In this document: positions 48,622 to 58,263 of the stretch, in pieces | Numbering within the stretch: the stretch's first letter is position 1 | Layout: the number at the start of each line of letters is the position of its first letter | From: a virus | Direction: 5' to 3' (one strand) | Length of the DNA stretch: 64,000 bases | IMG/VR virus record: IMGVR_UViG_3300049217_000117 | Location: 3,904-67,903 of that record | Made by a program: the position numbers and the translations under genes | Notes under the pieces: generated by a model | Seen by the model: only the letters and a program-made list of their open reading frames with translations | Database searches by the model: none | What the model was told of the DNA's origin: nothing

Positions 48622-50391
48622 TTAAGGCCTCTCGTTTGCTTCGTTAGTAAACTGGTTTGGGTTTTCCACCGATCGGGTGAATTCAGAGTCCAGTCTGGCC
48701 TCCGAGCGTTCAAAAACATCGTCACGGGGATGACATACCATGCCGCCCATGGTTCCAAGGACATTGGCGATGCTGACAGCATTGCTCAGTGACTCGGACA
48801 CCGCTTTCGTGGCATCAAACAGGCCAAGCTCCTCTGCTTTACCGTAGACCTGATTTTCCACGTCATAAACGACTTCTGGATCATTGATCAGGGTATGAAG
48901 GACATCCTCAATTTCATCTTTGCTATAGCCAGCATTTTCCAGGAGTCTGTTGGGGAGCGATAGCAGGGAAGGCATCAGCACTTCTCTGGCTGGATCGTTC
49001 GTTTCAAGCTCTTGTGCGATTTTGATAGCCATATCTATCGCGAGCCTGCATCCACCGGGTAGAGCACCGTAACCAATAGCAGAACGAACGGCACACACGG
49101 CGTCTTCGCAACGATCGTGGGCTTCTTTAAGCTCACCGTTTGATCCACCATAGATGGTTAACTTAGCGATACCGTTGGTAATTTTACCAATACGCTCTTC
49201 GAGCATTAGCCTCTCGGCTTGACTCTCAGCGCTGTTCATCTGAGTCTTAAGCTGTTCGGCTCGTACTTCTACATTCACTGGATCGGGATTGCCGACCACA
49301 GTGGAACGGAAGCGTGAGGCCTCGAAACTTTCCATGCTGCTTCCCAGATCGCTAGCCGTTGCCCGGCTGACCTGATCTTTTAAGCCGAAGACCTTGGCGC
49401 CAGTGAAAGCGGCCAGGTCGTACAGGAAATGGGTCTGACTGTTCAGGAACTGAGCCATAGGGGTGATCATCGGAAGGATGTTCATGGTCCCTGGGTCGCT
49501 GAAGTTGAATGCGAACTGCGTCAAAACACTCTCGCTGAACCCATGAGCGAAGATCACGATGTTCTTGAAATCGGAATCTCCGTTGACGTACTTCTGTCCG
49601 CACTGAGCAAGCAACGAATCTATAGATACAAGATCGTTCAGGTTTCCATCGTACAGGAGGAACAGGGGCTTTTCCAGATAACAGCGTTGATTGCCTTGGT
49701 CATTGATGAAAGCTACGTGCAGCTTACCAATACTTTCTTCCAGACCCATGGGGATCGGGAAGCCGTCAATACGCTGGACTTTGTATGCTTTCTTACCGCT
49801 CAGCTCTCGGATTGTAACGTGAGAACTGTCCCCGTAACCGATTTGCTCGAACGCGTCGATTACGGCGGCGGCCATATCATCATCCCCGTTGGCGGAAATC
49901 TTGGCGACCATCTTCAAAAGCTTCTGATTCTCCTCTCCGATCTTGATAGATCGAGATTTGATATACGGCATCAACACCTTCTCGGTGATCTCACTGATCC
50001 GGCGCGTAGCTTTTTGAGGGCTGTACTTTGGATTTTTTTCGCAGAAGTCAAAAAGGTTCTGAATAATAGAGTAGGCTAGTACAGTAGCGGTCGTAGTTCC
50101 GTCACCGGCTTCCGTAGCAGTTCGCTGCGCAACGTCACGCGTGCTCTCAATTATTAAATGCTCATAAGCATCATTAGAACCTAGAGATTTAAAAATTGTT
50201 ACTCCGTCTTTGGTGAGTTTGTTCGGAATACCTGGGTAGTCGGACTCGATCATAGTTACGCGTCCACCAGGACCAAGAGACGAGCCAACGATATCTGACA
50301 CTTTTCTCATGGTGTCTAAAACTTTGTTTTTTAGGAATTTTTGATCACATGCAAAAATTTTTGGGGCTGACTTAGCTTTACGAGCTGACAT
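48622..50391 (-). CDS. groEL: GroEL-like chaperonin
   Basis: SLGPGG, TKDGVT, AGDGTTTATVLA, EDAVCA, PGG. Confidence 0.92.
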   Translation of the reverse strand: MSARKAKSAPKIFACDQKFLKNKVLDTMRKVSDIVGSSLGPGGRVTMIESDYPGIPNKLTKDGVTIFKSLGSNDAYEHLIIESTRDVAQRTATEAGDGTTTATVLAYSIIQNLFDFCEKNPKYSPQKATRRISEITEKVLMPYIKSRSIKIGEENQKLLKMVAKISANGDDDMAAAVIDAFEQIGYGDSSHVTIRELSGKKAYKVQRIDGFPIPMGLEESIGKLHVAFINDQGNQRCYLEKPLFLLYDGNLNDLVSIDSLLAQCGQKYVNGDSDFKNIVIFAHGFSESVLTQFAFNFSDPGTMNILPMITPMAQFLNSQTHFLYDLAAFTGAKVFGLKDQVSRATASDLGSSMESFEASRFRSTVVGNPDPVNVEVRAEQLKTQMNSAESQAERLMLEERIGKITNGIAKLTIYGGSNGELKEAHDRCEDAVCAVRSAIGYGALPGGCRLAIDMAIKIAQELETNDPAREVLMPSLLSLPNRLLENAGYSKDEIEDVLHTLINDPEVVYDVENQVYGKAEELGLFDATKAVSESLSNAVSIANVLGTMGGMVCHPRDDVFERSEARLDSEFTRSVENPNQFTNEANERP

Positions 50392-50834
50392 CTTTTCTCC
50401 GATTGTCTGCTATTCTGAAAACTCTATTTAAAAAACCTTCCATGGTTTTATCTGTTTTCATTAGATTGCACGGAGTACAACACGGGACGGAATTTTCATT
50501 CGTGTAGCCACCGTTAGAGTCTAGCCTGTCTATTCCATTAGCCAAGTAGACGCTCATATCGTTTTTTCGCTTATATCCATGACTTCTTGCGGAAGGAGGA
50601 TCGTCACAATAAAAACAGTTCATAGAGCATATATCATAGAATTCACGATCGCTTAAAGTGAACGAAATGCCCAATGAAGCCGATCTGCTCTTATATTTCC
50701 TGGCAATTGACTTTCTTGTGCCGCACTGGCACTCGCAAATCCAAAAAGAACCTCTTTCGAGCCCTATTTTGGATAAATCTCTACAAATTACAATAAGTTG
50801 ACCGAATTTTTTGGCTATTAGATCTTATTTTCAT
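50378..50834 (-). pseudogene. frameshifted HNH-like homing endonuclease
   Basis: DLI.KKFGQL.V...WICECQCG and GIDRLDS..GY..EN.VPCC motifs; the ATG at 50834 is out of frame by 1 nt. Confidence 0.65.
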
Positions 50835-50901
50835 AATATAAAGATTGTCACGAATTGAAATTTTTGTACACTTCAAACTGTCCATGATATGGTAGCCATA
50901 C

Positions 50902-52407
50902 ATGGAAATTACTATCCGGACTCCTACCAAGGCATTCCTGACTGCTTATACCGAAGAAGAGTTCCAGAAACTGACCAAACAGCTCAGCTACACGAACACT
51001 GCAGCCGCGCATCAGGTAAAGCGTCACTACAATAACCAATGGGCCAGGCGAAAGAATCCTGACGCATGGGCCAAGACATTGGATGAGCTGAAAAGCCAGG
51101 TCCACAACTGTCTTATTTGGGAAGAAAACGGCGAGAGATTCATCAGGCCTGGCTCGATATGCTATCTGGAAAAGCTAGACCTAAAGGTCACAAATACGAT
51201 CAAGTATCCTACGCCCAAAAAGGTCGCGTGGGCTAAGCCTCTTCCATTTGTCTTGTATCCCTACCAAGAGATCAGCTGGGTTGAACTGATCTCCAATTTC
51301 CATTCGAATGTAGAGCTTTGCACTGGATCAGGCAAGTCAGCTATTATTCTCAAGTACTGCAGAGAGACTGGTTATAAAACCGTCATCGTAGCACCTGGAA
51401 AGAGTGTCTTCTACGAACTAATCGAAAAGTTCGAATACCATTTTGGTCGAGGCATGGTTGGAAAGTTCGGCGATCAAAAGAGAGATCTCGGCAAACGCTT
51501 CACGATCGCCATCGGCGATTCCTTGGCTAATCTGAAGCCTGGGACCGCTGAGTGGGAATTCTTTTCCACCATGGAGGCCATGTGCATTGACGAGGCCCAT
51601 ACATGGGGCGCAGAGACCTTAGACGAGGTTTGTCACGGTGTCCTGGGCAATGTTCCGTGTCGCACATACTATTCGGCCACTATGACACGCGGAGACGGTG
51701 CCGAAAAGCTTCTGAAGAGCATTGTGGCAAGGACCGTATGTGTTCTAACTACCAAGGAAGCCAAGGAAAAGGGCTATATTTGCGACCACGATTACCGGAT
51801 TGTGGAAGTTGAGTCAAGCGATCCTAACTATGCTACCGCTGATCCTCTAGACATGAAACGCGTGCATCACTTGAATAATCGAAATATTCGAAACTTCGTC
51901 GCCAGGCTTGCGAATGCGGACGCCAAGGTCAACAAGAGACAAACACTTGTTTTGGTTGATGAATTAAGTCAAATCGCCGCTCTGATCCCGCTTCTGACGG
52001 TGCCCTATGTGGTCGCCCACTCTGAAAAGAAAAAAGAAAGACTTGCAACCCTGGGCCTTGAAAAGGTGGACTACGCAGAAAGCGTAGAGAAGTTCAACAA
52101 GGGCGAGGCTATGGTTCTGATCGGAACCACTTGTATTTCCACAGGAACCAATATCTTCCCTGTCCACAACTGCTTCAATTGGCAGGGCGGCTGTAGCGAA
52201 ATTCGCACTAAGCAAGGCTCTATTGGACGTGCCGTAAGAATCGGATCTCATAATCCATGGGCCGATCGATGCGCCGTTAAGACAAAATCGACTATTTGGG
52301 ATTTCCGAGTCGTCGATGTGTATATTATGGATCGCCAAACGGACGATCGGATTGAATTTTATAGAGAAAGTGGTTCAGAGATAAGAACAATAAAGCTAAA
52401 AAGATGA
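50902..52407 (+). CDS. superfamily 2 DNA helicase (UvsW-like)
   Basis: TGSGKS, DEAH, SAT, QGSIGRAVR. Confidence 0.9.
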   Translation: MEITIRTPTKAFLTAYTEEEFQKLTKQLSYTNTAAAHQVKRHYNNQWARRKNPDAWAKTLDELKSQVHNCLIWEENGERFIRPGSICYLEKLDLKVTNTIKYPTPKKVAWAKPLPFVLYPYQEISWVELISNFHSNVELCTGSGKSAIILKYCRETGYKTVIVAPGKSVFYELIEKFEYHFGRGMVGKFGDQKRDLGKRFTIAIGDSLANLKPGTAEWEFFSTMEAMCIDEAHTWGAETLDEVCHGVLGNVPCRTYYSATMTRGDGAEKLLKSIVARTVCVLTTKEAKEKGYICDHDYRIVEVESSDPNYATADPLDMKRVHHLNNRNIRNFVARLANADAKVNKRQTLVLVDELSQIAALIPLLTVPYVVAHSEKKKERLATLGLEKVDYAESVEKFNKGEAMVLIGTTCISTGTNIFPVHNCFNWQGGCSEIRTKQGSIGRAVRIGSHNPWADRCAVKTKSTIWDFRVVDVYIMDRQTDDRIEFYRESGSEIRTIKLKR

Positions 52408-52472
52408 GGAATGGCAAGGTACGGCAAGCTCATGCGGTGCCCGGTGTGGTGAGGCAAGGTAGGGTTTTTATT
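52408..52472 (+). repeat. GGY-NN pentamer array A (~12 units)
   Basis: GGCaa GGTac GGCaa ... GGCaa GGTag GGTtt. Confidence 0.85.
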
Positions 52473-52510
52473 TTGCGTTTTCAAAAAGACCGTGTAGTAT
52501 TATCGCATAA

Positions 52511-52587
52511 GGCGAGGTTTGGTCGGGCGAGGCGTCGTGAAGCTGGGTTGGGTCTGGCAAGGCACGGTAAGGTGAGCCAAGGTTTTT
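52511..52587 (+). repeat. GGY-NN pentamer array B (15 units)
   Basis: GGCga GGTtt GGTcg GGCga GGCgt ... GGTtt; promoter-like TTGCGT-N16-TAGTAT upstream. Confidence 0.9.
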
Positions 52588-52602
52588 AACGAAAGGAAAT
52601 GT

Positions 52603-53172
52603 ATGTTCAAGAAAGTCACTTTTGAGTTGAATGGAACTGGTCCTCTTTTGATGCACAAGTTTACTACGGAAATCTCCGAAGAGACCGTTACAAGAGGAAA
52701 GAAGGATTACGGTACTCCGCAAAAACAAGCGGAAGAGGTTGCCTACTTCGATAAGGACACAAAAAAGCTTTTCATGCCAAGCACTTGGATTCAGGGTGCA
52801 ATTAAGCAGGTTTCTAGTGATTTCAAATGTTCCGGAAATAAGAAAAAGACAATCAAATCCGTCATCGGTGGCGCAGTTCGAGTAACGCAACCTAAGATTT
52901 ATTTCTCTGATGATCGCACTCTGGACAGCATTGAGATTTTCTCAAGTCCAGTTGTGGTGCAACGCGCCCGCGTGATTCGTCACCGTCCCCAGATCAACAA
53001 TTGGTGTGCAACGGTAGAGGTTCTGGTAGACACTAGTTTGGTTTCTACCAAAGAAGTTGAAGCGCTTTTCCGCGATGCTGGTCATCGGGTCGGAATTGGT
53101 GATTTCCGTATCGCTAAAGGTGGACCTTTCGGTTCATTCTCTGCCAAAAAGCTTACTGAGATTGATTTGTAA
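52603..53172 (+). CDS. RAMP/Cas7-like protein
   Basis: N-terminal GTGPLLMH, FMPSTWIQGAI, C-terminal glycine loop GIGDFRIAKGGPFGSF. Confidence 0.65.
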   Translation: MFKKVTFELNGTGPLLMHKFTTEISEETVTRGKKDYGTPQKQAEEVAYFDKDTKKLFMPSTWIQGAIKQVSSDFKCSGNKKKTIKSVIGGAVRVTQPKIYFSDDRTLDSIEIFSSPVVVQRARVIRHRPQINNWCATVEVLVDTSLVSTKEVEALFRDAGHRVGIGDFRIAKGGPFGSFSAKKLTEIDL

Positions 53173-53177
53173 TTTGA

Positions 53178-53243
53178 GGTCCGGCATGGCGAACCATGGC
53201 TTGGTCGGTCTAGGCGAAGCGAGCAACGGTAAGGTAAGGTTTT
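53178..53243 (+). repeat. GGY-NN pentamer array C (13 units)
   Basis: GGTcc GGCat GGCga ... GGTaa GGTaa GGTtt. Confidence 0.9.
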
Positions 53244-53258
53244 AATAAATTAAATTTG

Positions 53259-53313
53259 GGCGGGGCACGGCGCGGTCGGGCCTGGTGTGGCTTGGCAAGG
53301 CAAGGTGGGGTAA
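53259..53313 (+). repeat. GGY-NN pentamer array D (11 perfect units)
   Basis: GGCgg GGCac GGCgc GGTcg GGCct GGTgt GGCtt GGCaa GGCaa GGTgg GGTaa. Confidence 0.92.
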
Positions 53314-53317
53314 GTTT

Positions 53318-53731
53318 ATGGATGAAAAAACGCTCAAGTATTTGGAAGAGCTGCAGAATCCAGAAAAATGTGAATTTGTGCTGCCCAGTGTTCAAGTGAA
53401 GGCGCGTGAGCCGTTTTCGAAAGATAAATCGAGTGCACCTATCAGCGAACTCCCTCTTTTTCAACCAATTCATGAAGTTATAGACAGAAACGTTCACTTT
53501 ACTCCAGTTGGCGCCGTGCCGGACGATCTCAGAAAAAGTGTTTTTGAAAGAGATGGGTACAAGTGTGTCAAATGCGATGCGACAGATTATCTTGAATGTG
53601 ATCACGCTAAGCCTAGAGCAAAAGGCGGATTAAACGAATTATCTAATTTACAGACGCTATGTAGGCGATGTAATTCAGAAAAGGGCGTAACCGAATGGTA
53701 CGGCCCAACCCTGAATGTTGAAGTAAATTGA
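53318..53731 (+). CDS. HNH endonuclease
   Basis: RDGYKCVKC, DH.KP...GG....NLQTLCRRCN. Confidence 0.88.
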   Translation: MDEKTLKYLEELQNPEKCEFVLPSVQVKAREPFSKDKSSAPISELPLFQPIHEVIDRNVHFTPVGAVPDDLRKSVFERDGYKCVKCDATDYLECDHAKPRAKGGLNELSNLQTLCRRCNSEKGVTEWYGPTLNVEVN

Positions 53732-53742
53732 ACTATGATTTC

Positions 53743-53808
53743 GGTGTGGTGCGGCTGCCATGGGTGCGGTGTGGTTATGCGTGATTTGGTTTGGTAAGGT
53801 AAGGTTTT
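53743..53808 (+). repeat. GGY-NN pentamer array E (13 units)
   Basis: GGTgt GGTgc GGCtg ... GGTaa GGTaa GGTtt. Confidence 0.9.
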
Positions 53809-53828
53809 CCTTGTGATATATACGGGGC

Positions 53829-54860
53829 ATGAGCAAGCCTCGCAGACAAGAGAGGTTTGACGATTCTTTCTACAGGCTGGCCGGAGAGGTCACTAGAGCC
53901 CTGGAGAAAAACAAGGACGGAACGATTCAGAAAGAGCAGGTCGAAGAGCTGCTTGATGCTGAACGAAAGTTCAAGGAAACTGTCCTTAAGTATCGTCAAT
54001 CCACGGAAGTGTACAAGAAGTTCCTACAAAAGGTGTGCATCCAGAATAAAAATATTCTGAGTGCTCGTCCCTATTTTAGGGAGACGGCTACGTTCTTTAG
54101 CAAAAAAATCACTCCGGCCATAAAAGAGAGCAACATTGAGCTTCTGAAGACGTTTGACATCAACTACCAGTTCATTACCTTTATCCGTAATTCCTGGCTA
54201 GGGCCGTTTCCAAAACGCGCCGAGCAGCTTTACCAACGAGTCCACAGGGCTCGAACCATCCTAATCGAAAACAACATGCCACTGGCGATTAACCGTGCCA
54301 AGCTGTTCTACCGTAAGACACCAAAGAGTCATCTGACCCTGATGGATTTTATCGGGATCTGTTCGATGGGCCTCGCCGCAGGTATCGACAAATGGTGCGG
54401 TACCTATTCCCCAGTTTTCAGGTCGGTTTGTATCGGACGTATGGTCGGCAACATGATTGACTCGTATAGCGAGACAATGCTACACTTCTATCCATCCGAC
54501 AAAAGAATTCTCTACAAGGCCCACACGATTCGTGGCCGAAGAGGAATCGATGAGATCCACGAACTGACCGATGCTGTGAATACCAGTTTCGAACAGGACG
54601 AACTGGAAGGCAAGACGATTCCCAAGGGAAATATTGAGGTCGGTGAGCTGAGCGCACTAATGAATGCGGCCAGTACAGTCAGTGCAGATGCTACGTTGAA
54701 CGAAGAGGGATACGGCGTCTATCACTACACGGAAGATCCGACCCAAGACATCGAGGGGGCCTATATGGAAAAAGAGGCAACTAGTAAAATGCTTCTCCTC
54801 GCGAAAGAGCTTCCAATCCTACATAGAAAAGTGCTAAAGCTGAAAGGAATCAAACTATGA
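53829..54860 (+). CDS. RNA polymerase sigma-70-like factor
   Basis: LIENNMPLAI..AK and DFIG....GL..GIDKW (region 2); C-terminal L....RKVL.L. Confidence 0.7.
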   Translation: MSKPRRQERFDDSFYRLAGEVTRALEKNKDGTIQKEQVEELLDAERKFKETVLKYRQSTEVYKKFLQKVCIQNKNILSARPYFRETATFFSKKITPAIKESNIELLKTFDINYQFITFIRNSWLGPFPKRAEQLYQRVHRARTILIENNMPLAINRAKLFYRKTPKSHLTLMDFIGICSMGLAAGIDKWCGTYSPVFRSVCIGRMVGNMIDSYSETMLHFYPSDKRILYKAHTIRGRRGIDEIHELTDAVNTSFEQDELEGKTIPKGNIEVGELSALMNAASTVSADATLNEEGYGVYHYTEDPTQDIEGAYMEKEATSKMLLLAKELPILHRKVLKLKGIKL

Positions 54861-55225
54861 AAACCACAGTAGACGGTCTGTCATTGGACGACGGCATGTT
54901 TCATCTTCAGTCCACCCGATCGCTGAACAACCGTTTGGTGATCGAGGCATATAAGAAAGAAGGCCTGAGAGCGAACGTGCAGCACGGATTCGCCCGCCTT
55001 GACCAAAAACTTGCCGTGAAGGGTCTCACGATCCTCATGGACGCAAAGCTCAACGATGGCACATTTGTTCCCAAGGGAAGTAAGGCGTATATCCGAGAGG
55101 AAACGCTTCACACCGCACCCTGGGCACAGAAGATCCTTGAATCAGACTTGCTAGGCCAGCCTTTCATGATCACCGATCTCGCCAACGTTGAGTTCATTGA
55201 ACCCCCAACCGATCCAGCTGCATGA
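54857..55225 (+). CDS. divergent GroES-like co-chaperonin (putative)
   Basis: SLNNRLVI, mobile-loop-like HGF, VPKGSKAYI, GQPFMI patterns. Confidence 0.45.
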   Translation: MKTTVDGLSLDDGMFHLQSTRSLNNRLVIEAYKKEGLRANVQHGFARLDQKLAVKGLTILMDAKLNDGTFVPKGSKAYIREETLHTAPWAQKILESDLLGQPFMITDLANVEFIEPPTDPAA

Positions 55226-55329
55226 AAATCTGTAGTAAGTGTAAGGAAAACAAGGATATTTCTGAATTTTACAGGGACAGTCCGGAAATCATGGGAGAGG
55301 CCATAAAGTATGTCACTCAGGATACTTAG
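55222..55329 (+). pseudogene. remnant of a homing endonuclease N-terminus
   Basis: MKICSKCKENKDISEFY followed by an early stop. Confidence 0.5.
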
Positions 55330-56302
55330 GGTTGGCGATCCACATGCCAAGGTTGGCAACTTGGATGAGATGAAAAATCTCATAATTTTCATTGGCCAGA
55401 TGGCTGTGAAGTATGGCGTTGATAGAATCGAACTTCTTGGAGACCTGTTTCACACGCATGCAATCATAAGGCTCGAAGTTCTAATGTTCTGGAACTGGGC
55501 TCTTGAGTACCTGAGTAACATTTGCGAAGTCGTAGTATTGGTGGGCAACCATGACATTTCTGGCGATCTTAGTTCTGATGTTTCTGCTCTTACCCTCTTC
55601 GGGCTGATGAATCGGCCTAAGCTTGTCATCGTCGATAAGCCAACACGTCTGGGAGTTTTTGGCTATGTCCCCTACACTCACGATCTCGATAAGTTTGTTC
55701 GTTCTGCTGAATCTTTGGCTCTGGAAGGAGCTAAAGTACTTGTTTGTCACCAGACTCTGGACGGATCAAAATACGAAAGCGGCATGTTTGCCCCAGACGG
55801 ATTTCCAGTTGGTGATTGGGCCAAAGCCTTTATCCACATTTTCTCAGGACACATCCACTCCGAACAGGAGTTTGGAAATATTACCTATCCGGGGACTGCC
55901 AGATGGGACAGCGTTTCTGATGCCAACTTACGGAAAGGAGTATGGCTCTACAATCACGAGGATAGCTCTGGCGCTTCGCTCTCAAGGGAGTTTATTGGAA
56001 CCGAAGAAGTGTGCTGTCCTATCCAATCTGTCGAGTGGCGAGAAGGGGAACCCGAGCCAGTTCTACGGGACGGCAAAAACTCGAAAGTAACCGTAGAACT
56101 CATCGGCAGCTCCGTATGGGTTGCCCAGGAAAAGCTCAAATTGAAGGGCAAATGTAGTGTAAAAACCAAAATTACCGATAAGAAAAACAGGACCACTCGC
56201 TCAAAAGGTGATAATCTGGAGCACTTCCTGACAAATTTGTTCACTACCAAAGTTGATAAGACTGATTTGATCAAGTACGCAAAGGAGATCGGCGTTGTCT
56301 GA
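55310..56302 (+). CDS. SbcD/Mre11-like recombination nuclease
   Basis: GDPH, GDLF, GNHD, CHQ, SGHIH, YPG. Confidence 0.88.
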   Translation: MSLRILRVGDPHAKVGNLDEMKNLIIFIGQMAVKYGVDRIELLGDLFHTHAIIRLEVLMFWNWALEYLSNICEVVVLVGNHDISGDLSSDVSALTLFGLMNRPKLVIVDKPTRLGVFGYVPYTHDLDKFVRSAESLALEGAKVLVCHQTLDGSKYESGMFAPDGFPVGDWAKAFIHIFSGHIHSEQEFGNITYPGTARWDSVSDANLRKGVWLYNHEDSSGASLSREFIGTEEVCCPIQSVEWREGEPEPVLRDGKNSKVTVELIGSSVWVAQEKLKLKGKCSVKTKITDKKNRTTRSKGDNLEHFLTNLFTTKVDKTDLIKYAKEIGVV

Positions 56303-56708
56303 CGAGAAGGGAAAAGAAGTCAAAGAAATCCTGAAGAAGATGGCGCAATTCTCGATTTCCAACAACCAAATCAACGAGATACAGCAGCAGAATCTCAAGG
56401 CTTACCCCTTTGTCTTTTTCAACGGCGTCAAGTCTGCGAAGATCGACTACGACCTCACAAACCACAGCAAGGTCGAGTATGACACCAATCCAAAGACTCT
56501 GGATATTGTGTATAAGTTCGGAAAACCTCAGACCGAAAATTTCAAAATTTCCTATGATATAGAGATTGATGAGTCCGCGTCGAATCCGCATCTAGAAAAG
56601 CGGTTCGAGGCCCTTGAGAGGGCTATTCACACTCTTTTCTGGAAGGGTATACCCCTAGAAGTTCTGTTCAATGGTCTAAGCGTCTATTCGAGTAAGAGAA
56701 ATGACTGA
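56295..56708 (+). CDS. hypothetical protein
   Basis: AGGAG RBS; TTG start. Confidence 0.65.
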   Translation: MSDEKGKEVKEILKKMAQFSISNNQINEIQQQNLKAYPFVFFNGVKSAKIDYDLTNHSKVEYDTNPKTLDIVYKFGKPQTENFKISYDIEIDESASNPHLEKRFEALERAIHTLFWKGIPLEVLFNGLSVYSSKRND

Positions 56709-57369
56709 CACCTTGCCCATCGAAAAACCGACTACCGATCTAACTCCAGAAGACATAAAGAAGATCGAGAAGTACGTCGCAGACGGACTGCCCAATATTC
56801 ACAGGGTAGACGAGCAGCTTTTGTATCGAATGACCGACCTGTACCTAGGCGGCAGCACGTACTGGCAGATCTCCAACATCATGAATCTCCCGAGAGTTAT
56901 GGTCATGTATGTGGCCCATCGCTACGATTGGTACTCGACCAAGAAGGAATTCCTGAACGAGCTTCAGCAGAGCATCACCGGTCGTGTGATCGATTCTAAG
57001 CTGGTCAGCCAAGACTTCCTGCTCACTCTCACTCAGGCTTGGCAAAAGAAGATTCTAAAGAAACTAAAGCGGTACCTAGAGACCGATGACGAAGAGCACA
57101 CCGAGGAGATCGACCTGAAAGAAGTCGAAAAGCTCCTCAAGACCATTGAGATGATCAAGGATCTGAACAATGAAGGAAAGAATTCCAAAAGCAGAACACC
57201 TGCGGTTGGATTGAACTTGGGCGATGGCGTAACCATTGAAAGGTCGGGAGACAACAAGGTTACGATCACCCCAAAAGAAAAAGCTTTAGGGGATGTGCTC
57301 CAAAGGCTTGCAGATGATAGACGTGCAGAAATGAACAAACAGTCCAAAGAGACAAAGAAAGAGGAATGA
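56701..57369 (+). CDS. HTH protein (possibly terminase small subunit)
   Basis: LYLGG.TY.QIS...NL...W helix-turn-helix pattern. Confidence 0.5.
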   Translation: MTDTLPIEKPTTDLTPEDIKKIEKYVADGLPNIHRVDEQLLYRMTDLYLGGSTYWQISNIMNLPRVMVMYVAHRYDWYSTKKEFLNELQQSITGRVIDSKLVSQDFLLTLTQAWQKKILKKLKRYLETDDEEHTEEIDLKEVEKLLKTIEMIKDLNNEGKNSKSRTPAVGLNLGDGVTIERSGDNKVTITPKEKALGDVLQRLADDRRAEMNKQSKETKKEE

Positions 57370-57372
57370 AAG

Positions 57373-58263
57373 ATGAACAAGAGTATGTTAGCAATGTTGG
57401 TCGTGGGGCTTTTCGCCTTCCTTCCGATTCTGGATGAAGCTAAAGCTGCGGCACCCGAGATCTCCGCGATCACGCTGTCGGCAGATAACCTGCTCATCCT
57501 CAATACCGAAGTGAACGGTGATTCCGTTTCTAAGGTGATTTCCCAGGCCAGGAAGCTGTGCGCAGCATCCAAGAAGTCTGGACTGAAAGGTAAGTTGGGT
57601 CTAGGCGGAGAACCCAAGCGCCTGAAGCTGTTCATGAACAGCCCCGGTGGCAGTATTCAGTCTGGGCTTGAGCTTAACGAAGCTCTCGACGGTCTCGGAT
57701 GCAAAGTCGATACGGTTACTCTCTTCTCGGCCAGTATGGCCTGGCAGATTGTTCAGGCCCTTGGCGAAAGGTACATTCTTAAGAACGGTGTCATGATGAG
57801 CCACCGTGCTAGTGGAGAATTTGCCGGTTCCTTTGGTGGGAAGTCTCCTAGCCAAATCGAATCCAGATACGCTCTATGGATGAGTCGTCTAACTGAGATG
57901 GATGCCCAAACTGTTTCTCGCACCAAGGGTAAGCAAACTCTTGACAGCTACCAGACCGCATACTCTCAGGAAATGTGGCTGACCGGAAGACAATCGGTCG
58001 ATAAGGGCTACTCGGATGAAGTCGTGAGAGCGCAATGCGACGAGACGCTTACTGGAGTAGACACCGCTTCTATCGAGCTTTTTGGATTCAAGATCAGCTA
58101 CGATTTGGATAAGTGTCCGCTCAACACTGCTCCTATGAACATTCGTATCGCCACTCCGGATGGAAAGCAGATTTACTCTGTTACTCAGGAACAAGAAATC
58201 AAGGAGCGTTTCTATCAACAATTCATGTCTAAGCAGAGACAGGTTGTTCCGATGTATTGGTAA
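57373..58263 (+). CDS. ClpP-like serine protease with a signal peptide
   Basis: NSPGGS, SASMA, MMSH; N-terminal hydrophobic signal ending AKA. Confidence 0.8.
   Translation: MNKSMLAMLVVGLFAFLPILDEAKAAAPEISAITLSADNLLILNTEVNGDSVSKVISQARKLCAASKKSGLKGKLGLGGEPKRLKLFMNSPGGSIQSGLELNEALDGLGCKVDTVTLFSASMAWQIVQALGERYILKNGVMMSHRASGEFAGSFGGKSPSQIESRYALWMSRLTEMDAQTVSRTKGKQTLDSYQTAYSQEMWLTGRQSVDKGYSDEVVRAQCDETLTGVDTASIELFGFKISYDLDKCPLNTAPMNIRIATPDGKQIYSVTQEQEIKERFYQQFMSKQRQVVPMYW

What the first reader, a model, noticed from the sequence alone, without database searches (positions are those of the whole stretch)
52408..53808. Candidate non-CRISPR RNA-guided system: GGY-NN pentamer arrays around a RAMP/Cas7-like gene and an HNH nuclease
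Seen: five non-coding arrays (52408-72, 52511-87, 53178-243, 53259-313, 53743-808) of 11-15 pentamers. Each pentamer has a near-constant GGY triplet and a variable NN, and the 5-nt register holds even where GGY is mutated. The arrays flank a 189-aa protein with RAMP hallmarks and a small HNH nuclease, and the unit sits between the helicase and sigma genes with its own promoter-like sequence. Established: RAMP/Cas7 proteins polymerise along guide RNA with a fixed period. Inference: each array is a small RNA, GGY is the protein-binding scaffold, and the NN pairs spell a gapped target code, with HNH as a possible effector. I recall a recent report of similar RAMP plus GGY/NN ('VIPR') systems; that recollection is unverified.
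Basis: partly seen in the sequence, partly recalled or inferred. Interest (0 to 1): 0.95.

Follow-up and report, generated by a model that had tools for sequence, protein, structure and literature searches.

The report
VIPR guide-RNA system in a phage
This is a new example of the recently described phage VIPR system, in which a small protein coats GGY-NN repeat RNAs to read DNA by a gapped code, here paired with an HNH nuclease in a relative of Myxococcus phage Mx1.

Summary
Five same-strand arrays of 11-15 pentamers (64 units, 50 exact GGY) occur only at 52408-53807 in the window.

The 189-aa protein is a Vipr. A profile of its family hits the PDB chain 36pp_D, 'SUSP1 Vipr protein', at E 9e-26 over its full length. 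The residues that hold GGY in SUSP1 Vipr align with H18, R128, D167, F168 and R169. In 104 of 117 distinct homologous loci, GGY arrays lie within 1 kb of vipr on its own strand, and none lie on the other strand.

VIPR is already in print, in four 2026 bioRxiv preprints. This is therefore a new member of a known kind.

Local features:
- The locus is a 1.4-kb cassette between a helicase gene and a sigma-factor gene that overlap in Myxococcus phage Mx1. Mx1 has no Vipr.
- The vrRNAs have no room for a SUSP1-type structured tail and end in AAGGTTTT.
- An intact HNH gene sits among the arrays. This layout recurs in the one fetched homologue above 47% identity, L083.

No target was found.

The parts
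52408..52467 (+). vrRNA 1: 12 GGYNN units (8 exact GGY). It starts at the base after the helicase stop codon and ends GGTAGGGTTT followed by TT.
52511..52585 (+). vrRNA 2: 15 units (12 exact GGY). It ends GCCAAGGTTT followed by TT, 17 nt before the vipr ATG.
52603..53172 (+). vipr: the 189-aa Vipr protein, a RAMP-related protein that forms a filament on RNA.
   Evidence: No Pfam, NCBIfam or PADLOC family. phrog_4652 at 1.9e-18. BLASTP to SUSP1 Vipr E 8e-12. Family profile against PDB 36pp_D 'SUSP1 Vipr protein' E 9e-26. 1582 representative clusters at E<=1e-3.
53178..53242 (+). vrRNA 3: 13 units (9 exact GGY). It starts 5 nt after the vipr stop and ends GGTAAGGTAAGGTTT followed by T.
   Evidence: Not picked up by the score-based scan.
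53259..53317 (+). vrRNA 4: 11 of 11 exact GGY units (53259-53313), then GTTT. It abuts the HNH ATG, so the HNH ribosome-binding region lies inside the last units.
   Evidence: L083 has the same layout.
53318..53731 (+). HNH nuclease gene (137 aa from the ATG at 53318), the candidate vipr-accessory protein. The CxxC...DH...N...CxxC motif is intact.
   Evidence: Pfam HNH 7.7e-11. Invariant C83, C86, D95, H96, N110, C115, C118 and N119 in alignment A4. The only homologue that also covers the N-terminal part is next to the Vipr of L083.
53743..53807 (+). vrRNA 5: 13 units (10 exact GGY). It ends GGTAAGGTAAGGTTT followed by T, 21 nt before the sigma-like gene.
50902..52407 (+). Left boundary, not part of the system: a core phage helicase. 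Its Mx1 homologue overlaps the sigma gene directly.
53829..54860 (+). Right boundary, not part of the system: a sigma-factor-like gene, 35% identical to the Mx1 'putative RNA polymerase sigma factor' (E 1e-60).

Best explanation
The locus is a VIPR (Viral Interference Programmable Repeat) system. It is carried as a roughly 1.4-kb cassette in a large phage related to Myxococcus phage Mx1.

The five GGYNN arrays are vrRNA genes. By homology with the solved SUSP1 system, one Vipr protomer binds each pentamer. The protomers hold the two G and the pyrimidine and expose the NN pair. The string of NN pairs then reads double-stranded DNA with one skipped base per repeat (xNN). This forms an R-loop triplex that blocks transcription of a competing mobile element.

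Inferred for this locus:
- The cassette is transcribed by read-through from the helicase operon, since no promoter or terminator was found.
- The vrRNAs are freed by trimming of the unprotected A/U-rich linkers.
- The conserved AAGGTTTT end replaces the long pseudoknot tail of SUSP1 vrRNAs.
- The HNH protein is an accessory nuclease that cuts the DNA marked by the filament.

Shown here: family membership, array anatomy, conservation of the array-vipr link and genomic context. Not shown: expression, targets and any HNH-Vipr contact.

The confidence given is for the VIPR reading as a whole. The HNH-effector step alone is about even or lower.
For: Protein:
- tblastn finds the Vipr gene of SUSP1 itself (22.9% identity over 98% of the query, E 1e-4) among 126 phage records.
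- Pairwise BLASTP to SUSP1 Vipr gives E 8e-12.
- A 98-sequence profile hits PDB 36pp_D 'SUSP1 Vipr protein' at E 9e-26 over positions 1-185. The next hits are at E >=0.4.
- The SUSP1 residues reported to hold GGY are H17, R138, D177, W178 and R179 (paper 720927, Results). They align with H18, R128, D167, F168 and R169. R128 and R169 are >=90% conserved in 98 relatives. D167 is >=90% conserved in the 16-sequence alignment.

RNA:
- 64 units, 50 exact GGY, with information only at positions 1-3.
- The arrays are confined to this locus and to one strand.
- The intergenic RNAs are no more structured than shuffles: z -0.79, -0.05 and +2.49.
- No Rfam family matches.

Family link:
- In 104 of 117 distinct homologous loci at least one array lies within 1 kb of vipr on its strand, and in 0 on the other strand. 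That is 253 arrays near vipr against 3 far from it.
- The SUSP1 locus shows the same arrays.

HNH:
- L083 (Vipr 66% identical) has vipr, a 14-unit array ending GGTAAGGTTTT, then the ATG of a homologous HNH at phmmer E 8.5e-28.
- L083's other neighbours are unrelated to the window's helicase and sigma genes, so vipr and HNH travel together.

Context:
- The helicase and sigma genes overlap in Mx1, which has no Vipr in its 169,621 bases.
Against: - No target was found for any of the five vrRNAs. Matches in the phage's own 67.9-kb record, in Mx1 and in 0.86 Mb of VIPR loci equal the shuffled-unit null. Exact 20-base patterns hit nothing in the viral or genome collections.
- 14 of 64 units are not GGY, so some vrRNAs may be decaying.
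- There is no structured 3' tail, which in SUSP1 caps the filament.
- HNH sits next to vipr in only 1 of the 160 fetched loci (117 distinct). It is absent from the next-closest loci at 40-47% identity. A second HNH-like ORF lies 2.7 kb away at 50378-50674. The HNH could therefore be a homing endonuclease.
- There are no RNA data, and no fold or complex model could be made.
Confidence: 0.88

Rival explanations
1. The VIPR part is as described above, but the HNH is a free-standing homing endonuclease. It mobilises the cassette, or merely rides with it, and takes no part in vrRNA-guided interference. This VIPR would then silence targets without cutting them, as SUSP1 does.
For: - Phage genomes carry many free-standing HNH genes. 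A second HNH/endonuclease VII-like ORF lies at 50378-50674.
- The cassette sits exactly between two core genes that overlap in Mx1. This is a typical site for a homing insertion.
- L083 carries vipr and HNH in a different gene context.
- The closest Vipr relatives other than L083 have no HNH.
- The published SUSP1 accessory protein Vap1 is not a nuclease.
Against: - The HNH gene is embedded among vrRNAs on both sides, in the window and in L083 (there with a decayed array after HNH), and its start abuts a vrRNA end.
- Vipr and HNH have diverged together (66% and about 42-50% identity), which suggests long co-inheritance.
- The discovery paper lists HNH domains among Vap proteins (Fig. S21 legend).
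Confidence: 0.35
2. The vrRNAs regulate the phage's own genes rather than a competitor. The regulation could act in trans on the phage genome, or in cis because Vipr bound to vrRNA 4 hides the HNH ribosome-binding site.
For: - The cassette lies inside an operon next to a phage sigma factor.
- The last units of vrRNA 4 supply the only purine-rich stretch before the HNH ATG, in the window and in L083.
Against: - No xNN match above the shuffled-unit null exists in the 67.9-kb record: best 15/24, 20/30, 18/26, 16/22 and 18/26. That record is only about 41% of the genome.
- The published study also found no self-targets.
Confidence: 0.1
3. The arrays are inert G-rich simple repeats or relics, and the 189-aa protein has lost its RNA-guided function.
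For: - 14 of 64 units are degenerate.
- No target was found.
Against: - Strand, register and the GGY/NN contrast are kept in all five arrays.
- The ORF is intact, with its key residues conserved.
- The paper notes frequent internal degeneracy in working vrRNAs.
Confidence: 0.04

Closest known systems
SUSP1 VIPR (type II; Escherichia phage phiSUSP1, KT454805.2; PDB 36pp)
   Same: - A homologous Vipr protein of about 190 aa with the GGY-holding residues conserved.
- GGYNN arrays of 11-15 units on the vipr strand, both upstream and downstream of the gene.
- A two-gene core carried by a phage.
   Different: - Only 23% protein identity.
- SUSP1 vrRNAs carry a structured tail of about 40-60 nt. Here the spacers after the arrays are 43, 17, 16, 4 and 21 nt, and the arrays end in AAGGTTTT.
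- The SUSP1 accessory gene is vap1, grouped with predicted DNA binders. Here it is an HNH nuclease.
- Here the vrRNAs alternate with the genes rather than forming one downstream array.
Nuclease-bearing VIPR types III and V (paper 720920)
   Same: A predicted nuclease serves as the accessory gene. HNH domains are named among Vap proteins in the Fig. S21 legend.
   Different: - Those types are described as enriched in cellular defence islands and as the only types with nucleases. This locus is in a phage contig syntenic with the phage Mx1.
- I could not see the type tables or figures because supplements are closed, so the type is unassigned.
Class 1 CRISPR backbone (Cas7 filament on crRNA)
   Same: A RAMP-type protein polymerises along a guide RNA with a fixed period and flips bases at each subunit. 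This is taken from the papers' text.
   Different: - There are no CRISPR repeats, no other cas genes and no spacer acquisition genes.
- The period is 5 nt, not 6.
- Only 2 of every 5 guide bases pair, and the target skips 1 base in 3.
- No Pfam RAMP family matches.
HNH domains of the RNA-guided nucleases IscB and Cas9d
   Same: The best NCBIfam matches of the HNH core (residues 71-125) are IscB at E 6e-14 and Cas9d at E 3e-4.
   Different: The match covers the domain only, at 51.9 bits against a cut-off of 175. The protein has 137 aa and no RuvC or bridge helix. This is not membership.

Membership tests
VIPR system | Vipr protein homologous to the reference Vipr | tested here: met
   Profile against PDB 36pp_D 'SUSP1 Vipr protein', E 9e-26, full length. 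BLASTP E 8e-12. tblastn hits the SUSP1 gene.
VIPR system | Residues that hold G1, G2 and Y3 (SUSP1 H17, R138, D177, W178, R179) | tested here: met
   They align with H18, R128, D167, F168 (W to F, still aromatic) and R169. R128 and R169 are >=90% conserved in 98 sequences. Position 18 is H or N in close relatives.
VIPR system | Tandem YNNGG/GGYNN repeats next to vipr on its strand (at least 4 units; typically 9-16) | tested here: met
   Five arrays of 11-15 units. They occur only here in the window and only on the + strand.
VIPR system | GGY conserved and NN hypervariable | tested here: met
   1.26, 1.38 and 0.78 bits at positions 1-3 against 0.08 and 0.11 bits at positions 4-5. 14 different dinucleotides occur in the 49 units left after the last three units of each array are dropped. 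The NN strings of L083 differ from the window's.
VIPR system | Invariant structured 3' tail (a pseudoknot in the SUSP1 clade) | tested here: not met
   The spacers after the arrays are 43, 17, 16, 4 and 21 nt. Folding gives z -0.79, -0.05 and +2.49. Only a short shared AAGGTTTT end is present. The paper describes the tail for type II and says architectures vary between types, so this may not define the whole family.
VIPR system | Accessory (vap) gene linked to vipr | tested here: inconclusive
   HNH is adjacent in the window and in L083 only, that is 1 of 160 fetched loci. Function was not tested.
VIPR system | vrRNAs expressed and bound by Vipr | not testable with these tools
   Only DNA runs hold the stretch.
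VIPR system | Natural targets that obey the 1-nt skip rule | tested here: inconclusive
   No match above the null in the phage's own record, in Mx1 or in the VIPR loci. No exact 20-base hit. The 16-base seeds extend only at chance level.
RAMP superfamily (Cas5/6/7) | RRM core, glycine-rich loop and thumb seen in a structure | not tested
A glycine-rich stretch GIGDFRIAKGGPFG is visible. The ESM Atlas model has pTM 0.83 but matches only unnamed viral clusters. No Pfam RAMP hit.
HNH endonuclease | Beta-beta-alpha metal motif with catalytic His, Asn and zinc cysteines | tested here: met
   PF01844 at 7.7e-11. C83, C86, D95, H96, N110, C115, C118 and N119 are invariant in 11 sequences.

The most novel reading that the evidence does not exclude
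A phage-borne VIPR that cuts rather than only silences. The Vipr-vrRNA filament would mark a rival element by the gapped xNN code and recruit the small HNH protein to cleave it. HNH synthesis would be gated by Vipr occupancy of vrRNA 4, whose last units contain the HNH ribosome-binding site. The same nuclease might also drive the vipr-HNH cassette into new phage genomes, which would make it a guide-RNA-bearing homing element.
Probability: 0.3. Interest if true: 0.6.

Novelty: new member of a known kind. Interest (0 to 1): 0.35.

Why it matters
VIPR was described only in 2026, and its experiments cover two type II systems that silence their targets.

- This locus extends the family to an Mx1-like phage from an environmental sample.
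- It shows a compact layout of tail-less vrRNAs interleaved with the genes.
- It places an intact HNH nuclease inside a phage-borne VIPR. The discovery paper ties nucleases to the types found in cellular defence islands.

If the HNH proves to be guided by the filament, this would be a very small system for cutting DNA by a noncontiguous RNA code (189 aa, 137 aa and RNAs of about 60 nt). It would also be evidence that phages use VIPR to destroy rivals as well as to silence them. As a class, however, it is already known.

Tried and rejected
**Target search.** GGY was replaced by one wildcard, as in the paper's method.
- Local scoring of all five vrRNAs gave best matches equal to the shuffled-unit nulls. 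The searches covered the phage's own 67.9-kb record, all of Mx1 and 0.86 Mb of pooled VIPR loci.
- Exact 20-base patterns for vrRNA 4 and vrRNA 2 gave 0 hits in viral contigs and 0 in genome contigs.
- 16-base seeds gave 2, 13, 41 and 35 loci.
- On extension the best were 19/22 (L164) and 22/26 (L175). About 37 of the 41 vrRNA 1 hits are one conserved sequence with 0-1 of 8 outside bases matching.
- By my own binomial estimate such scores are expected by chance in a collection of this size, so I claim no target. Mismatch-tolerant search of the big collections was not possible.

**Helicase as a vap.** Rejected. Mx1 has the same helicase-sigma synteny but no Vipr.

**CRISPR or other known RNA.** No Rfam hit.

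**Promoter or terminator for the cassette.** None by consensus scan.

**Expression.** No RNA holder was listed: two DNA runs hold the stretch and may be its source.

**Array spacing in relatives.** The median gap between detected arrays is 22 nt (131 gaps). This is rough, because the scan splits degenerate arrays.

**VIPR type.** Could not be assigned. The type tables and figures are in supplements or images, which were closed or not held. They may already list this clade or this HNH.
Full report
**Observation.** The region 52408-53807 holds five arrays of pentamers on the + strand. In the register GGYNN they have 12, 15, 13, 11 and 13 units. Of the 64 units, 50 are exact GGY (8/12, 12/15, 9/13, 11/11 and 10/13). 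Positions 1-3 carry 1.26, 1.38 and 0.78 bits, positions 4-5 carry 0.08 and 0.11 bits, and position 3 is never G.

The register is kept across degenerate units. A score-based scan of both strands of the whole window found such segments only at 52443-53807 on the + strand, with scores 5, 8, 11 and 5.5. In 100 Markov shuffles the mean was 0.08 segments of score >=4 and the maximum was 4. That scan did not pick up array 3 or the 5' half of array 1, whose degenerate units are scattered. Both are visible only in the fixed-register view.

**What is known.** The library holds four 2026 bioRxiv preprints on VIPR.
- From 10.64898/2026.04.26.720920 I read the outline, all Results, Methods sections 18, 20 and 26, and passages found by term.
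- From 10.64898/2026.04.26.720927 I read the outline and all Results.
- From 10.64898/2026.10.15.759431 and 10.64898/2026.10.21.760802 I read passages only.

These papers report the following:
- Vipr is a RAMP-related protein of phages.
- vrRNAs have 9-16 YNNGG repeats followed by a tail.
- One protomer binds each repeat and holds GGY.
- The NN pairs read dsDNA with one skipped base per repeat, forming an R-loop triplex that silences transcription.
- There are seven types and six vap genes. Nucleases are tied to types III and V in cellular defence islands.

**The protein.** The 189-aa product of 52603-53172 has no Pfam, NCBIfam or PADLOC family. It matches phrog_4652 (unknown function) over its full length at E 1.9e-18.

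tblastn against phage records gave 126 records, all below 60% identity. They include the SUSP1 gene (22.9% identity over 98% of the query, E 1e-4), and the best is a Pseudomonas prophage-like phage at 27.4%. The SUSP1 locus I fetched has the published layout: the hit gene, a 146-aa neighbour and GGY arrays in both long intergenic regions.

Pairwise BLASTP to the SUSP1 protein gives E 8e-12. An exhaustive phmmer search found 1582 representative clusters at E<=1e-3, 294 at <=1e-10 and 5 at <=1e-30. A profile of 98 of these hit PDB 36pp_D, 'SUSP1 Vipr protein', at E 9e-26 over positions 1-185. The next hits were at E >=0.4.

The SUSP1 residues reported to hold GGY (H17, R138, D177, W178, R179) align with H18, R128, D167, F168 and R169. 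R128 and R169 are >=90% conserved in the 98-sequence alignment. I could not make a fold because structure prediction was off. The ESM Atlas holds a confident model (pTM 0.83), whose neighbours are unnamed clusters that are 88-100% viral.

**The link between protein and arrays.** I fetched 160 homologous loci, 80 from viral contigs and 80 from metagenome contigs. These were the best 80 of 103 and of 430 confirmed matches. After removing duplicates, 117 distinct loci remained.
- 104 have at least one array of score >=5 within 1 kb of vipr on its strand: 38 upstream only, 48 downstream only and 18 on both sides.
- None has an array on the opposite strand.
- 253 arrays lie near vipr and 3 lie far from it, although more sequence is far than near.

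**The HNH.** The ORF from the ATG at 53318 has an HNH domain (PF01844, E 7.7e-11) with the zinc cysteines, DH and N intact. The core resembles the IscB HNH most among NCBIfam models (E 6e-14, far below the family cut-off).

Only one homologue also covers the N-terminal 65 residues. It lies in L083, the closest fetched Vipr locus (66% identity). There, vipr is followed by a 14-unit array ending GGTAAGGTTTT, then directly by the HNH ATG, then by a decayed array.

A profile search of the ORFs of all 160 loci found no other adjacent HNH. Four weak hits (E 3.5e-4 to 3.4e-3) were seen; for the two best, in L070 and L068, the ORFs lie more than 1 kb from vipr. Pfam found none in neighbours of L003, L005, L084 and L089. 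The downstream genes of L083 are unrelated to the window's sigma gene.

**Genomic context.** The window is part of a 67,903-base virus record estimated at 41% complete. Its GroEL-like protein, helicase and sigma-like protein are 41%, 29% and 35% identical to those of Myxococcus phage Mx1, a 169.6-kb phage.

In Mx1 the gene order is helicase, sigma, a small ORF, a calcineurin-like phosphoesterase, two ORFs and then terminase, and the helicase and sigma genes overlap. The window has the same helicase, sigma, small ORF and phosphoesterase order, with the VIPR cassette between helicase and sigma. Mx1 has no Vipr anywhere in its genome. The helicase is therefore a core phage gene and not a vap. The cassette looks like an insertion.

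**How this locus differs from SUSP1.** The arrays alternate with the genes. vrRNA 1 starts at the base after the helicase stop, and vrRNA 4 abuts the HNH start. The spacers after the arrays are 43, 17, 16, 4 and 21 nt, which leaves no room for the 40-60-nt structured tail of SUSP1 vrRNAs.

Four of the five arrays, and the array of L083, end in AAGGTTTT. Array 1 ends GGGTTTT and array 4 ends GGTAAGTTT. The intergenic RNAs fold no better than shuffles, with z -0.79, -0.05 and +2.49. Short gaps between arrays are common among the relatives (median 22 nt over 131 gaps, a rough measure).

**Targets.** None was found. The details are in Tried and rejected.

**Verdict.** The kind of system is already described, so this is a new member of a known kind. 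Its local interest lies in three points: a phage lineage not mentioned in the passages I read, compact tail-less vrRNAs, and an HNH nuclease embedded in a phage-borne VIPR.

My confidence that this is a VIPR system is about 0.9. My confidence that the HNH is a guided effector rather than a homing nuclease is about even or lower. The supplements of the discovery paper, which I could not see, may already cover this clade.

Noticed in passing
window 50378-50674 (-): A 98-aa HNH/endonuclease VII-like ORF (phrog_1035, E 3.9e-12) whose 3' end overlaps the start of the GroEL-like gene. It may be a free-standing homing endonuclease. Mx1 has a different 190-aa ORF before its helicase.
   Followed up: partly
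window 48622-58263: The gene order matches Myxococcus phage Mx1: GroEL-like chaperonin (41% identity), helicase, sigma-like factor and an SbcD/calcineurin-like phosphoesterase. GC content is 48% here against 55.5% in Mx1. The host of this phage is unknown.
   Followed up: partly
L003 4193-5762 (118.6-kb viral contig, Vipr 47% identical): At least 12 detected array segments lie downstream of vipr in three blocks. Most end in a GGACG motif, and a DUF4120 gene sits between blocks. This is another layout of vrRNAs interleaved with genes, much larger than the window's.
   Followed up: partly
L006 3686-3965: A single 280-nt run of 56 pentamers in one register (40 exact GGY). This is far longer than the 9-16 repeats given for a vrRNA and may be several abutting vrRNAs.
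   Followed up: no
L179-L219 (viral contigs): About 37 contigs share one conserved sequence that matches 8 consecutive units of vrRNA 1 exactly but 0-1 of the 8 remaining bases. I read this as one chance seed hit multiplied by a widespread phage family.
   Followed up: partly
L164 7-29 and 6224-6246: A 6.2-kb viral contig has terminal inverted repeats that contain a 19/22 match to vrRNA 4. By my estimate this is chance level for this collection.
   Followed up: partly
window 53318-53731: The best curated match of the HNH core is the HNH of the RNA-guided nuclease IscB (NF040563, E 6e-14, domain only), ahead of restriction-type HNH models in PADLOC.
   Followed up: no
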